DNA of 64,000 nt. Origin: Phallusia mammillata (lineage: Eukaryota). Every line of letters begins with the position of its first letter. The first letter of the stretch is position 1. A program made the position numbers. Of the stretch, positions 6,001 through 12,000 are shown piece by piece. Location: assembly GCA_965637545.1 (NCBI GenBank), contig OZ281501.1:16678001-16742000 (forward strand), given 5' to 3'.

Positions 6001-9000
6001 GGGTCGATTTGAGTCAAGTTGTATGTCACTTCCATTCGAGTATCACAGGAGCCGCAGTCTTTCGGCGGAGGACAGATCGCATCGAGTTGTGTTCCGTTGA
6101 AACATCTTACGCTGTCGTCCCGTTTCTTTTCATTACTAAGCACGCATGTATAGTTCTGATTACAACCACTGTTGTCTAACTCTGACCATATGTCGCTTTC
6201 AAGATGTAAACCATCGTTGCCATCCTGACAAGAGTTACAAACACAACCTGAAGTAATAGGGTCATGACAACCGCAACTGTCCTTCATATTGTTGTATATA
6301 TAACCGGTAGGACACGTTGATTCGACTATTGTGTCATTGCATTTGCTTTCGCAATTGTATACAGGACAACACGGTCCGTAGGAAGATATCTCTTTTGATG
6401 CCACTGGAACGTTGCAGAACCCACAGTTCAGTAAAGCGTTACTGTAACTGGGGCACGCAAGTTTTAGAAGCTCGGTGTTATCTGTGCAGTTGCATTCCAG
6501 ACAGGGACATTCTTCAGTGGTGTTGCAACCTTGGACGACTTTTTCGCCAGGATAAGAGCAAAAGACCGTGTCAGGTTCGTCGCATGCTGCATGGAAAAAA
6601 ATATTTGCCAGTTCCTGTTTTAACGTTTAAATCATTAACAAACAGCAATTTGATAATGGTGGAATAAGTCAAAGATGCCTACTGTATGATGATTAAAATA
6701 GAATAGTAAAACATACCGGCGAATAAATCGCATGACTATTAAATGTTTACAGACCAGCTGTGAGGAACAGTTACTTTGCTAAATGCATGTAATGCAGTAA
6801 TGTCTGAAACGACATAGGATATTCATTTACTACTTAGGTTTTGGAAATTTACAAATAAATTGCAAAGCGCTTACTGCATATGTATTCTTGACAGCATACG
6901 CCCGATCTATCAACCGGCATTGCGTACGACCCGGTCCGGTTACAATATTTATCCTCATACTGTTGCTGGGTCAAACACGTTGTTGCCTCTTCATACTCTG
7001 TCCTCAACTCATGACATGAATACTCGTCACCGATTCGTGTGTGTAAGCAACGAACACGAATGTCACAGTGATCGATTTGGTTCTTCAAAGTAACGTTTTC
7101 ACCCGGATTAAACCTTCGAACTTCACCGTTAAAAGTACCCTGACAGGTATAACAAATACACTTCCAGTCCTTGCAACAATCAGTAGGTTCGCTCATGTCA
7201 ACAGCTTCATAATGGGGAGGACATTCTGGCCTTGTTTGGGTGTAGCAACGGTCACAATCACATGACCATGTAGGGCAACATGGATTTGGGCCAGTTCCAG
7301 GGGCGTCATGAATTTTGACCACAGAGCGGTCATCTCTTGAAGAGCAGTTTGCCTCAGCTTCAGAGTAACTCTCACATTCAGTTTCAAGAACGGAAATTTC
7401 TGTGTCGCATTCGCAAACAGGTTTTTTAAAGCATCGGGAATCAGGATTATCGACTGAGTCGCTGTACTGGCCAGGATTGTTACATTCCTTGGGTTGAGGA
7501 GCGAAGGATGCATTGCAATCTAAACACACATAAAATTATAATATTTAAAACAGCCATGCATTTGAGAATCGGTAAAAACACTTCTGCAAGGATAAAACTT
7601 AAATTGTTGTGAGAAGAAAGTTTTGATGGAAACAACTAGCCAACATCACATTAAAAATATTTCAAATTCGTAAAGAATAATATTGTTACATAACATCATA
7701 AATGTGGCTTGCATGATATTTTCTGGGTGAGTTTTATCATGCAAACACCCCGAAAATCCATTTCAGCACAAATTGAACAGCGTGTGTCATCTAATACTTA
7801 CTGCAGGTGTAGTTAACACAGCATGTATTTCCTGAAGGAGATTCTATCAGATATTCATCAGCAAAGCAATCATCAAACTCTTCTTTAGTAGGGCAATCAT
7901 CTCGTGTATTGTGTGTGGTTCGTACAACACCACATGAGTTGGTATGTCGCTCAGGACCGCACACGTAATGCACAACACACCCATCTTCCACCTCTTGCCA
8001 CAATGAACCAAACTAAAAAGTCGAAATAATACGGTTATTTTGCTTTAACGTCCGATTAACAACATTTAATCTTAAGCCAAAATTACAAAAGTCTCTGTTT
8101 TGGTTTGGTTAACCGTACCAAAGCTCAATTAAGTCTGGTTAATAAATGTAACCAGTTCTGTACATTTGCTGAAGATACTGTTTTTCACTGTCTACTCATT
8201 TTGTTTGATTTTTACTTTTGTTGATTTTAAACGACTGTTTTTGAAATTTCTTTCGGAGGTTTTCTTATATAACATAGTTGCCCACGAATGATTTACAGCC
8301 ACCGACCTTCTAAATCAAGGGGATAGTTTGTGTTTTACCTTGAACAGGTTTATCTAAAAGTGACTGTTTTCTACAGATTTTAATTTAATACGTTTGTTTT
8401 TTATACTTATTCTTCCACTTACCGGTTTAACGGTTCCGTCAGGTAGGAAACAGTCGTAACACACCGAAGTGTTACAGCAATTCTCTTCAACCAAAACGTA
8501 GCCTTCTTTTTCTTCAACAGGCGGGCAGGGAATTATTGAAGGTTCGTAACATCCGTCTTCAAGTGGTAAGGGTTTATTTATAATATCGCACTCATAATTT
8601 GTGCAACCATTGCCATCACTATTCGTCTCATTCCATTTGCCGATAAAAGGCCAATGGCGATTTCCAGTGTTATCCTTACAGGAGTAACATGTGCAGAATT
8701 GGTAAGTACAACCACATTCATCATCGTCATAAGCGGGAACAAATCCGTGCGGGCAATCGAATGTTTCAATTTCTGGGCAGAATTCTTTTGGTATGCAAAT
8801 GCAGTCATAATTTGGACAGCATTGGCCTTCCACATGTTCGATAGTGATTTCCTTCATGGAATTGTTCTGGCACTTTTCCCATGCTGTTTGATATCCAGGA
8901 CAAACGTTTTTGTATTCTTCAGAATCGTTTAAGCAAACGCAGTCATAAATTGGACAACACTGGCCTTCTACATGTCTAATAGTGAATTCCTTGATGGAAG

Positions 9001-12000
9001 TGTTCTTGCACTTGTCCCATTTCTCTTGATATCCAGGACAAACGTTTTTGTATTCTTCAGTATCATTTAAGCAAACGCATTTGGAATGAGCGCACACAGA
9101 ACCTTCAGGAGGAACAACGATAGACTTCCAACTACGAGAACATTCGATCGGAGGTGGTACATAGTCGGAATTGCAAACTGCAAAATGTTTTTAAAATGTT
9201 ATGAAAACTTTACAAAACGAGCCCGGATTACGAGAAAACACTCACTCACATACATATATATATAAGTGATAAATGCGGAAAATATTACATCGACTTTTTG
9301 TCGTGTTTACACGTATGTGTTTGATAGTTTTAACATTTTGTACTAAAGTTAGGCAGAAATAAATACACAAATTCGTCCTTGCAACTTAGGAATAACATTA
9401 ATATAAAATGCGACAAAAAGACCCACCACACGTGTAGTTTGAGCAACACGGGTCGGTTGAATCAACTTCAATTAATGTTTGATCTTCTTTGCATTTGTAT
9501 TCTGTACAATTGCTTCTTGGATTGTAAAATTCCTCAAGTATGTAACAGAAGTCTGGGCTTGTGTATTTTTTATCTGAACAAACGTGCTTCACCATACATC
9601 CACCTTCGTCGGGAATCGAAATAATACCGCCACGCTGAACAATAAAAACACCACCGATTATCACTGGTGAAAACGGTAACTTTTTTGTTTTACCGCCTTG
9701 AAGGCGATTTTTTAACAAGACCTAATGGAAGGCATTTTAATGTGGGTGACGCAAAAACAAATGTAATTTGTGTTTTCAAAAAGTACTATTCAATCACATA
9801 TCAAATAGTTTAAGGGGTATGTCTTCCTTGGCTCTCAAAACCTACCAAACTAATCTTTATTGCTGGTTATACTGGTTATCGATGTATCTACTATTTAAAA
9901 GTAAACGCTGGGTTGCGTTGGTTTCAAAAACCTTTTTGAGCTTTAATTAAGTGTTTAATCAAAAGGCACTTCATTATTACTTATGGCAAAAACAAGCGTT
10001 TCTGGCAGGGCATATCGTACCTCAATCTTCTCTTCCTCCCAGAAGCATGCGTCACATGTCACATTAGCACAACACATATTGTTGTCCCAAACCAGTTTGT
10101 AGCCATCAGGAACGCTGGTTACGTTGTAGTCCGGATCACAAGGTGTTGTCACACACTGGTATACATTACAGCAGCCGTGGCACTGGTCGTGAATCGATTT
10201 CGAGCCGTTTGCGACGGTGGTGTAATGCTGACACTTGCCACACTTCGGCGGTTCAGGACAGAGGTTAGGATTACATTTGCACTCGCTCTGTATTGGGCAT
10301 GCACAAAAGTCCTGCTGGGTTACTGTAAAAACGAAAGCAATGGTTATAAATTATAAATAATGTTTACTGTACTATTATTGGTCATAGGTGATGGGTGAAA
10401 AATGCAACAACAGAACTGGGTTTACACAAGCAAACAGACCCTTTGCATCATTTTTAATTTTATAACCGCAACTTGAACATAACTAACCACACACCTTCAA
10501 CATGGCATCCAAGGTACTCCGTGCAGTTTGCATAGCTGTGGTCTGTATGGTTGCAGCCGTCAGGACAGATACAATCCGGGCACTCTACTCCTTCCATGTA
10601 CACAAGAAATTCTTCGGGACAATATTTGATGTCGGTGTAGATGCAAGTGCAGTTTTCTTCGGGACAGCATGTTTCGTTTGGTCTCGTGTAGTTGTTTTTG
10701 GTTCCAAGTCCCCCACAAATCAGTGGAGTACAGGAATCACACTCTAAAGCATAAAAAAACAAGGACAAATCCTGGTAAAATATGCTTAAACAAAAATAGT
10801 TGTATTAAAAACAATAAAACGGCAACATAATATACTTACAAAAAACAAAACGTTTCAAGTAAAACAGTGGGTTAAGTGATATGCAAACGTGCAATTAGTG
10901 TAAAATTCAACTAAATGCAAAATAGGGTAAAAGTAACCTTGTCATATGTTTTTAATCTTATTACATGTAAAAACACTTACCGCATGTGTAATCTTGACAA
11001 CATTTGCCGGTGCTATCCTTTTCTACTGCGTAAGATCCCTCCAGGTAACAGTGCTGTTTCTCAAACTCCTGCTTAGTCAGACACGTCGCTTCCTCTCGAT
11101 ATTCTGTTTCTATCTCGAAGCACGAATACCCGTCGTTTCTGAGTCGTGTGTGCAAGCAACGAACTCGTACGTCGCAGTTATTGCTTCGGCTCGTCAAAGT
11201 AACGTTTTCACCCGGATTAAGCCTATGAACTTCACCGTTAAAAGTCGTCTGACATGTATAGCAAACACACTTCCAGTCCTTGCAGCAATCAGAAGGTTTG
11301 CTCATATCAACAGCTTCATAATGGGGAGGACATTCTGGTCTTTCTTGGTTGGAGCAAGTGTCACACTCACATGACCATGTAGGGCAACATGGGTTTGGGC
11401 CAGATCCAGGGGCGTCATGAATTTTGGACACAGAGCGGTCATCTCTTGAAGAGCAGTTTGCCTCAGCTTCAGAGTAACTCTCACATTCAGTTTGAAGTAC
11501 TAAAATTTCTGTGTCGCATACGCAAACAGGTTCTTCGTAACATTTGTAGTTAGGAATCTTAACTGTATCGTTGTACTGGCCTGGAGCGTTGCATTCGATG
11601 GGTTGAGGGGCAAGGGATGCGTTGCAACCTTAAAAGTACAAAAAAATGCGTATGACCATATTGTGTCACGCTGACAAGTATAATTTAAAGAGTTTCTCCA
11701 AAATCTGATTACTAAAAATGTGAGTGTTGATATGTATAAAAACTACTGTAAAAAATAATTTTTGAAAATGCTGGAGAATGTGCACCAAAAAACTTTAGCT
11801 GGTATTCGAAAGTAATAAGTTAGTTTTCCAGTCACTTACTGCAAGTGTAGTTAACACAACATGTATTCCCTGAAGGAGATTCTTCAAGATATTCATCAGC
11901 ATAGCAGTCATCAAACTCTTCTTTAGTAGGGCAATCGTCTCGTGTATTGTGTGTGGTTCGTACAACACCACATGAGTTGGTATGTCGCTCAGGGCCACAC

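What the first reader, a model, noticed from the sequence alone, without database searches (positions are those of the whole stretch)
6875..11628. Intragenic concerted evolution: a patch in the twin 645/648-nt exons tracks gene, not position
Seen: in the mid-exon patch (~7060-7220 and ~11170-11330), A's two copies share EAVDMS, CCKDWK, CYTCQ, TFNGEV.R.NPGENVTL and CLHTR. B's two copies (46305-46949, 52012-52659) share IDIS, CCR.WK, D..Y.L.P..NAT and CLPTR. Immediately 3' of this, similarity follows position instead: TRIGD, QQQY and RTGSYAMPVD in both distal copies, versus TRLRND, KQE and LEGSY in both proximal copies, including the 3-nt length difference. Inference: gene conversion between internal repeats after the paralogs split, possibly selected to give each paralog a uniform, distinct surface.
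Basis: partly seen in the sequence, partly recalled or inferred. Interest (0 to 1): 0.65.

Follow-up and report, generated by a model that had tools for sequence, protein, structure and literature searches.

The report
One gene-conversion patch in twin exons
Two neighbouring copies of a cysteine-rich secreted-protein gene each carry a pair of twin exons, and one of the four exons has had about 150-300 bases overwritten from its twin in the same gene, an ordinary kind of DNA copying between repeats.

Summary
The four exons lie on the minus strand: Ad 6875-7519, Ap 10981-11628, Bd 46305-46949, Bp 52012-52659. They align with a single 3-nt gap. By-gene sites cluster in alignment columns 296-437 and by-position sites in columns 439-643. 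Zero of 5000 label shuffles reach the observed clustering, and AU tests reject the rival trees in each segment.

The pattern is not symmetric, though. In the patch A's copies differ at 14/148 sites (synonymous pS 0.19). B's copies differ at 43/148 (pS 0.55), which is as far apart as A is from B (40-55/148). In the 3' part only Ad and Bd are close (18/207); Ap-Bp differ at 64/210. Ap, Bd and Bp are about 30% apart throughout the 3' half. The triplet without Ad shows no mosaic signal, while triplets containing Ad do.

Ad is therefore the one recombinant. It has a Bd-like backbone, introns included, with an Ap-like insert of 142-306 nt. A single ectopic conversion from Ap to Ad explains this best. 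There is no evidence that B was homogenised in the patch, and none for selection of a uniform surface (dN/dS 0.15-0.36). The genes encode VWD-C8-TIL proteins, and the twin-exon module has almost no known relatives. This is a new example of a known process and of low interest.

The parts
6875..7519 (-). Twin exon Ad (gene A, distal, 645 nt, phase 1-1). This is the mosaic exon.
   Evidence: AG acceptor, GTAAG donor and open frame. It is the only sequence whose triplets show a significant mosaic.
7083..7224 (-). Minimal converted tract in Ad (alignment columns 296-437). The maximal extent is 7079-7384 (columns 136-441).
   Evidence: By-gene sites cluster here. The Ad-Ap fragment at columns 136-441 is reached by 0/10000 shuffles. 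The colinear Ad-Bd alignment is otherwise 80-98% identical and falls to 50-72% at 7093-7242.
6875..7081 (-). 3' segment of Ad (columns 439-648), which is Bd-like.
   Evidence: Ad-Bd differ at 18/207 sites, against 59-70/207 for the distal-proximal pairs and 64/210 for Ap-Bp. The Ad-Bd fragment at columns 450-648 is reached by 0/10000 shuffles.
10981..11628 (-). Twin exon Ap (gene A, proximal, 648 nt). Inferred donor.
   Evidence: Splice sites and frame. Its distances to Bd and Bp are the same in the patch and in the 3' part: 49/148 vs 70/207, and 41/148 vs 64/210.
11192..11333 (-). Donor stretch in Ap (columns 296-437). The maximal extent is 11188-11493.
   Evidence: 90.5% identical to the Ad patch over 148 nt. 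There is no better match anywhere else in the window.
46305..46949 (-). Twin exon Bd (gene B, distal, 645 nt). Its patch is at 46512-46659.
   Evidence: Colinear with Ad, introns included. Its patch differs from Bp at 43/148 sites and from Ad at 55/148.
52012..52659 (-). Twin exon Bp (gene B, proximal, 648 nt). Its patch is at 52222-52369.
   Evidence: The upstream intron and the 5' half of the exon are 85-98% identical to Ap. The 3' half is 60-84% identical. The downstream intron does not align.
7230..7379 (-). Conserved core of the twin exon (columns 141-290, coordinates given for Ad). It is nearly the same in all four copies.
   Evidence: All six pairs differ at 12-16 of 155 sites in columns 136-290. 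pS is 0.06-0.16 for all pairs. Ad and Ap share a 65-nt identical block at columns 136-200.
7802..8012 (-). Neighbouring exon Y (211 nt), distal copy of gene A. The other copies are at 11840-12050, 47365-47575 and 52872-53082.
   Evidence: pS is 0.10-0.22 for all six pairs, distal versus proximal included. The flanking introns are position-specific: 65 by-position sites against 3 by-gene sites.
46748..46912 (-). Columns 38-202 of Bd (in Bp: 52458-52622). This is the only stretch where B's two copies are unusually alike.
   Evidence: Bd-Bp fragment reached by 179/10000 shuffles, uncorrected for six pairs. In columns 3-140, dS(Bd-Bp) is 0.27 against 0.37-0.60 for the other pairs.

Best explanation
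The window holds two tandem paralogous genes, A and B, on the minus strand. They encode large secreted cysteine-rich proteins with VWD, C8 and TIL domains. Each gene contains a repeated multi-exon unit and so has a proximal and a distal copy of a 645/648-nt exon.

In the 3' half of this exon, Ap, Bd and Bp are old lineages about 30% apart and saturated at synonymous sites. Ad shares its backbone, introns included, with Bd (about 90% identity).

After the Ad/Bd split, or during it, one ectopic (non-allelic) gene-conversion event inside gene A copied 142-306 nt from Ap into Ad. The two exons lie 4.1 kb apart in the same orientation.

Inferred mechanism: the exchange started in the near-identical core of the exon, which includes a 65-nt perfect Ad-Ap match. 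It then ran 3'-wards into diverged sequence and ended near column 438-448. This makes the patch 'track the gene' in A, while the rest of Ad still tracks position.

The residues that B's copies share in the patch are best read as states that the A lineage has changed.

Shown: the mosaic, its limits, that it is shared ancestry rather than convergence, and that Ad is the mosaic member. Inferred: the direction (Ap to Ad), a single event, and the place of initiation.
For: 1. Segment trees. The patch prefers by-gene and the 3' part prefers by-position, with the rival trees rejected (p-AU 0.003/0.047 and 0.001/0.0005). The clustering of informative sites is reached by 0/5000 shuffles.

2. Shared ancestry. 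In the patch pS is 0.19 for Ad-Ap against 0.55-0.72 for the other five pairs. Third positions differ at 6/49 against 19-25/49.

3. Ad is the mosaic. The three tests on the triplet Ap, Bd, Bp gave 59, 390 and 614 of 1000 shuffles. Seven of the nine tests on triplets containing Ad gave 0-8 of 1000; the other two, both with Bp as child, gave 67 and 198. The distances among Ap, Bd and Bp are the same in the patch and in the 3' part: 41/148 vs 64/210, 49/148 vs 70/207, 43/148 vs 61/207.

4. The backbone is native. The Ad and Bd regions are colinear at 90.7% over 6.2 kb, introns included. A local dip to 50-72% identity occurs only at 7093-7242.

5. Direction. Where Bd and Bp differ and A's copies agree, A sides with Bp at 20 sites and with Bd at 9 (binomial p 0.06). 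If Ad were the donor, A would be expected to sit within about 9% of Bd, but Ad-Bd differ at 55/148.

6. Not an artefact of copying. Ad and Ap still differ at 14/148 sites in the patch. No other donor exists in the window.
Against: - No outgroup is available, so the patch tree cannot be rooted. Only 3 distant relatives were found among 1.84 billion representatives. At the by-gene amino-acid sites they give about one vote each way (my reading of the alignment).
- The direction test is only marginal (20 vs 9, p 0.06).
- Between about 8.7 and 11.3 kb (48.3-52.3 kb in B), A and B align only in exons, at 76-83%. The A/B history is therefore not a simple duplication. The patch could be an old A-type relic that a later B-to-A homogenisation skipped.
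- Four cross sites (Ad=Bp, Ap=Bd) cluster at columns 363-381 inside the patch. A single clean one-way tract does not predict this.
- Ad-Ap divergence in the patch (pS 0.19) equals Ad-Bd divergence in the 3' part (pS 0.18), so the order of the two events is not resolved.
Confidence: 0.65

Rival explanations
1. After the paralogs split, both genes homogenised the patch between their own two copies (concerted evolution in A and in B). Selection may have favoured this so that each paralog presents a uniform, distinct surface.
For: The unrooted patch tree is (Ad,Ap | Bd,Bp) with 94% bootstrap. There are 16 by-gene sites in 148 columns. B's copies do share IDIS, CCR.WK, NAT and CLPTR. An old B conversion followed by much divergence cannot be excluded without a root.
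Against: Bd-Bp differ at 43/148 sites in the patch, no fewer than Ap-Bp (41/148). The bootstrap interval for any extra B-B closeness spans zero (-0.044 to +0.093). pS(Bd-Bp) is 0.55, which is saturated. The patch branch lengths are Bd 0.32 and Bp 0.12, against Ad 0.06 and Ap 0.04. No Bd-Bp fragment was found in the patch. dN/dS is 0.15-0.36, with no sign of positive selection. NVT and NAT are both N-x-T sequons (established knowledge), so that difference need not change the surface.
Confidence: 0.1
2. The patch is a relic. A and B are old paralogs. Old gene A had already homogenised its two twin exons. A later long exchange between the genes made the distal region of A Bd-like but left a hole of 150-300 nt, which is the patch.
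For: The middle of the two genes is an old stratum where only exons align, at 76-83%. The young A-B similarity at both ends may therefore be secondary. In this model Ad is also the mosaic member. The equal divergences (pS 0.19 and 0.18) are compatible with it.
Against: It needs at least two events plus a discontinuous tract spanning more than 6 kb with one short hole. A short imported tract is the simpler reading and fits the usual size of ectopic conversion tracts (recalled general knowledge).
Confidence: 0.15
3. There was no exchange at all. A's two copies converged on the same residues through parallel selection.
For: The patch is the most variable part of the exon among Ap, Bd and Bp.
Against: The Ad-Ap similarity extends to synonymous sites (pS 0.19 vs 0.55-0.72). 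Purely synonymous by-gene sites exist at columns 341 and 416. Nine of the 16 by-gene sites in the patch are third positions.
Confidence: 0.02
4. Assembly or polishing artefact. Reads from Ap were placed on Ad and produced a false patch.
For: The locus is highly repetitive.
Against: The two patches differ at 14/148 sites. There are no N runs in the window. Both exons keep an open frame and good splice sites. The limits of the patch are sharp and it lies inside a well-aligned 6-kb block.
Confidence: 0.03

Closest known systems
Ectopic (interlocus or intragenic) gene conversion that produces mosaic paralogs. General literature includes PMC3924837, PMC3966223 and bioRxiv 10.1101/2025.10.29.685298. 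For all three I saw only the title and the start of the abstract in the search listing.
   Same: A short non-reciprocal tract with sharp limits. Adjacent segments give incongruent trees. Synonymous variants are shared. The donor and recipient are nearby and in the same orientation.
   Different: Here the partners are two exons of one gene rather than two genes. The second paralog acts as an internal control and shows which exon is the mosaic.
Concerted evolution of the internal repeats of abalone VERL (PMC2704960, passages read; it cites Swanson and Vacquier 1998, which I saw only in its reference list).
   Same: Repeats inside a large extracellular protein are homogenised by gene conversion or unequal crossing-over, while other repeats of the same gene evolve independently.
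   Different: VERL repeats 3-22 are homogenised as whole units, to at least 95% identity. Here a single patch in one of four exons was copied, the copies are separated by introns and other exons, and B's copies are not homogenised in the patch.
VWD-C8-TIL proteins (von Willebrand factor, gel-forming mucins, SCO-spondin, zonadhesin and similar).
   Same: Upstream exons of gene A match Pfam VWD, C8 and TIL above the gathering scores. Gene B has a TIL exon. The C8 exon hits a shark 'SCO-spondin-like' protein at 42% identity.
   Different: The twin exons and most of the other cysteine-rich exons match no Pfam family. No cystine-knot model matched the last exons. The twin-exon module has only 3 relatives among 1.84 billion representatives.

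Membership tests
Ectopic gene-conversion tract (mosaic paralog) | Adjacent segments support different trees, beyond chance. | tested here: met
   0/5000 label shuffles. AU tests reject the rival trees in both segments. The Ad-Ap fragment is reached by 0/10000 shuffles.
Ectopic gene-conversion tract (mosaic paralog) | Similarity in the tract extends to synonymous sites, showing shared ancestry rather than convergence. | tested here: met
   pS(Ad-Ap) is 0.19 against 0.55-0.72 for the other pairs. Third positions differ at 6/49 against 19-25/49.
Ectopic gene-conversion tract (mosaic paralog) | The flanks of the recipient, introns included, keep their original affinity. | tested here: met
   Ad-Bd are colinear at 80-98% identity on both sides of a dip at 7093-7242. 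The introns around exon Y are position-specific, with 65 by-position sites.
Ectopic gene-conversion tract (mosaic paralog) | Non-reciprocal: the donor is unchanged and the direction is known. | tested here: inconclusive
   A's patch sides with Bp at 20 sites and with Bd at 9 (p 0.06). Four cross sites at columns 363-381 might be a small reciprocal component. No outgroup is available.
   Met for A (14/148). Not met for B: Bd-Bp 43/148 against A-B 40-55/148, with a bootstrap interval that spans zero.
VWD-C8-TIL extracellular proteins | VWD, C8 and TIL domains in one gene. | tested here: met
   Pfam hits above the gathering scores, searched exon by exon in gene A: VWD 41.3 bits, C8 66.2 and 61.0 bits, TIL 29.1 bits.
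VWD-C8-TIL extracellular proteins | C-terminal cystine knot. | tested here: not met
   No Pfam match for ORFs 2434-2640, 3678-3893 or 41832-42038, even at E up to 5. The resemblance of their cysteine pattern to a cystine knot is only recalled.
VWC domain (for the twin exon itself) | Match to the VWC profile or fold. | tested here: inconclusive
   No Pfam match at E up to 1. No PDB sequence match at E up to 1. The AlphaFold model has pLDDT 73.5 and pTM 0.34. The best Foldseek E-values are 0.17-1.8, to VWF D'D3, NELL2, the MUC2 C-terminus and CCN3 vWC, with 0 matches at E <= 0.001. Atlas look-alikes are VWC/NELL2 at a score of 0.80-0.81, which is a lead only.

The most novel reading that the evidence does not exclude
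The four copies take part in a continuing exchange that is confined to exons. Exon Y and the core of the twin exon stay about 90-95% identical among all four copies, synonymous sites included, although the distal and proximal introns no longer align. On this reading the A patch is the visible edge of a process that gives each paralog its own repeated loop in a VWC-like module. If an outgroup showed that B's shared states are also derived, each paralog would carry a gene-specific signature written by intragenic conversion, perhaps tuned to a multivalent partner.
Probability: 0.08. Interest if true: 0.45.

Novelty: new member of a known kind. Interest (0 to 1): 0.2.

Why it matters
This is a clean worked example of how a four-sequence 'gene versus position' pattern can mislead. 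An apparently symmetric case of concerted evolution reduces to one recombinant exon once distances, synonymous sites and triplet tests are examined. For annotation, the locus holds two mosaic paralogs of a VWD-C8-TIL gene built from repeated cysteine-rich exons of a nearly orphan type. Trees made from these exons will be unreliable unless they are cut at the breakpoints. Nothing here suggests a new mechanism.

Tried and rejected
- Outgroups. A word-indexed search for longer proteins with the Ad exon found nothing. A full HMMER search with the four-exon profile found only 3 proteins (E 1.6e-31, 9.2e-19 and 1.5e-05). These are too distant to polarise the by-gene sites.
- Taxon. It was not determined. 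The only named hit is a shark SCO-spondin-like protein matching the C8 exon.
- Fold and surface exposure. The model is moderate and the tool returns no coordinates, so exposure of the patch stayed untested. Foldseek against the PDB gave no match at E <= 0.001. A PDB sequence search gave none. The Atlas gave only weak VWC/NELL2 leads.
- Pfam cystine-knot check of the 3'-most ORFs: no match.
- Search for another donor of any patch within the window: none found.
It was re-run in vectorised form.
- Convergent selection was rejected on synonymous sites.
- Mutually exclusive splicing of the twin exons was considered and dropped, because other exons lie between them.
- Not searched: metagenome contigs and viral contigs (closed); genome contigs (bacteria and archaea only, not relevant to this intron-bearing locus); supplements of papers (closed).
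- The spliced gene model was searched exon by exon only.

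
Full report
**What is at the coordinates.** The finding concerns four copies of one exon on the minus strand: Ad 6875-7519 (645 nt), Ap 10981-11628 (648 nt), Bd 46305-46949 (645 nt) and Bp 52012-52659 (648 nt). Each has an AG acceptor, a GTAAG donor and an open frame in phase 1-1. The window has no N runs.

A self-comparison shows two colinear tandem copies of a long gene region, A at about 0.8-22.5 kb and B at about 40.2-63.3 kb. Identity varies by stratum:
- 90.7% over 1506-7652 against 40907-47079, introns included.
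- 76% over 7638-8728 against 47200-48342.
- 82.7% over 10976-14700 against 52007-55797.
- In between, only exon pieces align, at 76-83%.

'Distal' and 'proximal' are therefore well defined by the flanking introns. The Ad and Bd regions align at 80-98% on both sides of the exon. The Ap and Bp regions align at 85-96% upstream. The introns around the neighbouring exon Y carry 65 by-position sites against 3 by-gene sites.

**The gene.** I searched the model exon by exon and built no joined protein. Upstream exons of gene A match Pfam VWD, C8 (twice) and TIL above the gathering scores, and gene B has a TIL exon. The C8 exon hits one named protein, a shark SCO-spondin-like, at 42% identity.

The twin exons encode about 214 residues with 26 cysteines. 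They match nothing in Pfam or in PDB sequences. A full HMMER search of 1.84 billion representatives found only 3 relatives. An AlphaFold model built on a six-sequence alignment is moderate (pLDDT 73.5, pTM 0.34). Foldseek against the PDB gives no match at E <= 0.001. The best hits, at E 0.17-1.8, are VWF D'D3, NELL2, the MUC2 C-terminal domains and CCN3 vWC. Atlas look-alikes are VWC/NELL2 at scores of 0.80-0.81. The module may be VWC-like, but this is a lead and not a result.

The domain set is of the animal type. The taxon was not determined. I do not take the contig for human.

**Check of the observation.** The nucleotide alignment has 648 columns and one 3-nt gap. It holds 20 by-gene, 25 by-position and 9 cross sites. 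By segment:

| Columns | By-gene | By-position | Cross |
|---|---|---|---|
| 291-438 | 16 | 1 | 4 |
| 439-648 | 1 | 22 | 2 |

Shuffling the labels over the informative sites keeps their positions, so the test is insensitive to rate variation. It reached the observed maximal chi-square in 0 of 5000 shuffles.

In the patch the by-gene tree is best, with by-position at p-AU 0.003 and cross at 0.047. In the 3' part the by-position tree is best, with the others at p-AU about 0.001. These segments were chosen after seeing the site patterns. The shuffle test is the one that allows for that choice.

**What the pattern really is.** It is not symmetric. Differences per segment:

| Pair | Patch (291-438) | 3' part (439-648) |
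|---|---|---|
| Ad-Ap | 14/148 | 66/207 |
| Bd-Bp | 43/148 | 61/207 |
| Ap-Bp | 41/148 | 64/210 |
| Ad-Bp | 40/148 | 59/207 |
| Ap-Bd | 49/148 | 70/207 |
| Ad-Bd | 55/148 | 18/207 |

Synonymous divergence tells the same story:
- In the patch, pS is 0.19 for Ad-Ap and 0.55-0.72 for all other pairs, Bd-Bp (0.55) included.
- In the 3' part, pS is 0.18 for Ad-Bd and 0.54-0.70 for all others, Ap-Bp (0.70) included.

Each segment therefore holds one young pair and otherwise old lineages of roughly equal distance. Ap, Bd and Bp keep the same mutual distances in both segments, and only Ad changes partner.

Triplet breakpoint tests agree. The three tests on the triplet without Ad gave 59, 390 and 614 of 1000 shuffles. 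Seven of the nine tests on triplets containing Ad gave 0-8 of 1000. The two exceptions, both with Bp as child, gave 67 and 198.

A GENECONV-style scan finds three fragments:
- An Ad-Ap fragment at columns 136-441 (0/10000).
- An Ad-Bd fragment at columns 450-648 (0/10000).
- A weak Bd-Bp fragment at columns 38-202, outside the patch (179/10000, uncorrected for six pairs).

The bootstrap interval for any extra closeness of B's copies in the patch is -0.044 to +0.093.

**Best explanation.** Ad is a recombinant. It has a Bd-like backbone with an Ap-like insert of at least 142 nt (columns 296-437; 7083-7224) and at most about 306 nt (columns 136-441; 7079-7384).

The backbone is native, because the similarity to Bd runs through the introns for 6 kb with one local dip at 7093-7242. 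The insert is shared ancestry and not convergence, because synonymous sites share it.

The direction Ap to Ad is inferred from three observations:
- If Ad had been the donor, the patch should lie within about 9% of Bd, but Ad-Bd differ at 55/148.
- A's patch sides with Bp at 20 sites and with Bd at 9 (p 0.06).
- Ap's distances to B's copies are the same inside and outside the patch.

I infer that the exchange began in the conserved core. There all six pairs differ at only 12-16 of 155 sites, and Ad and Ap share a 65-nt perfect match. It then ran into diverged sequence. That ectopic conversion needs a stretch of high identity to start is recalled general knowledge and was not tested here.

Divergence in the tract (pS 0.19) equals that of the Ad-Bd backbone (pS 0.18). 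The conversion therefore happened at about the time of the Ad/Bd split. It may even have been part of the same rearrangement, though that is speculation.

**What stays open.**
- Without an outgroup the patch tree has no root. An old conversion in B, or a relic origin of the patch, cannot be excluded.
- The old stratum in the middle of the genes shows that the A/B history is itself mosaic.
- Four cross sites at columns 363, 368, 374 and 381 (Ad=Bp, Ap=Bd) inside the patch are not predicted by one clean tract.
- Selection for a uniform surface has no support. dN/dS is 0.15-0.36 and 9 of the 16 by-gene sites are third positions.
- Exposure of the patch could not be tested.

**Wider pattern.** Exon Y (211 nt in all four copies) has pS 0.10-0.22 for all six pairs. 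The core of the twin exon has pS 0.06-0.16. Yet the introns of the distal and proximal units do not align. The exons, or parts of them, are therefore kept alike among all four copies at about the level of the young A-B stratum. Repeated exon-limited exchange is the usual explanation, and a constraint at the nucleotide level is the alternative. The A patch looks like one excursion of that process.

**Comparison with what is known.** Mosaic paralogs made by ectopic conversion are textbook material. For PMC3924837, PMC3966223 and bioRxiv 10.1101/2025.10.29.685298 I saw only the search listing. Concerted evolution of repeats inside one extracellular protein is classically described for abalone VERL (PMC2704960, passages read). 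This locus is a new instance and not a new kind.

I made two literature searches. I make no claim that this particular locus is unpublished. Paper supplements were closed and were not consulted.

**Verdict.** Interest is 0.2.

Noticed in passing
window 48062-50782 (minus-strand ORFs 48031-48513, 48813-49307, 49607-50101, 50403-51122): Gene B carries three to four tandem units of about 800 bp, 81-92% identical to one another. Each holds a 160-164-aa cysteine-rich ORF. Gene A has only one related exon at this place (8354-9190).
   Followed up: partly
window 8354-9190 (minus): This exon of gene A contains an internal tandem duplication of about 50 residues (CVCLND.EEYKNVCPGYQ...EGQCCP.YDC occurs twice).
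   Followed up: no
window about 8.7-11.3 kb against 48.3-52.3 kb: This is an old stratum between the paralogs. Only exon pieces align (76-83%) and the introns do not, whereas the regions on both sides are 83-91% identical with introns included. The boundary falls inside the proximal twin exon near column 290-300.
   Followed up: partly
alignment columns 363, 368, 374, 381 (Ad 7139-7157; Ap 11248-11266): Four cross sites (Ad=Bp, Ap=Bd) lie within 19 nt inside the converted patch. Bp matches Ad at 11/11 informative sites in columns 353-381. This may be a small reciprocal or patchy-repair component, or chance.
   Followed up: partly
exon Y copies 7802-8012, 11840-12050, 47365-47575, 52872-53082 (minus): All four copies are equally alike (pS 0.10-0.22, pN 0.02-0.06) with no informative tree, although the flanking introns are strictly position-specific.
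   Followed up: yes
Bd 46748-46912 and Bp 52458-52622 (columns 38-202): B's two copies are unusually alike in the 5' third of the exon (16/135 differences in columns 1-135, against 23-33/135 for the other pairs). Ap is the odd one out there. This may be a separate conversion in gene B, with marginal support (179/10000).
   Followed up: partly
window 19965-20640, 60831-61545, 63321-64000: A unit of about 700 bp that is single in A's part of the window occurs twice in B (84-87% identity). This is another internal duplication.
   Followed up: no
twin exons (all four): The 214-aa cysteine-rich module is nearly an orphan. Only 3 proteins among 1.84 billion representatives match its profile at E <= 0.001, and there is no Pfam or PDB sequence match.
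   Followed up: partly
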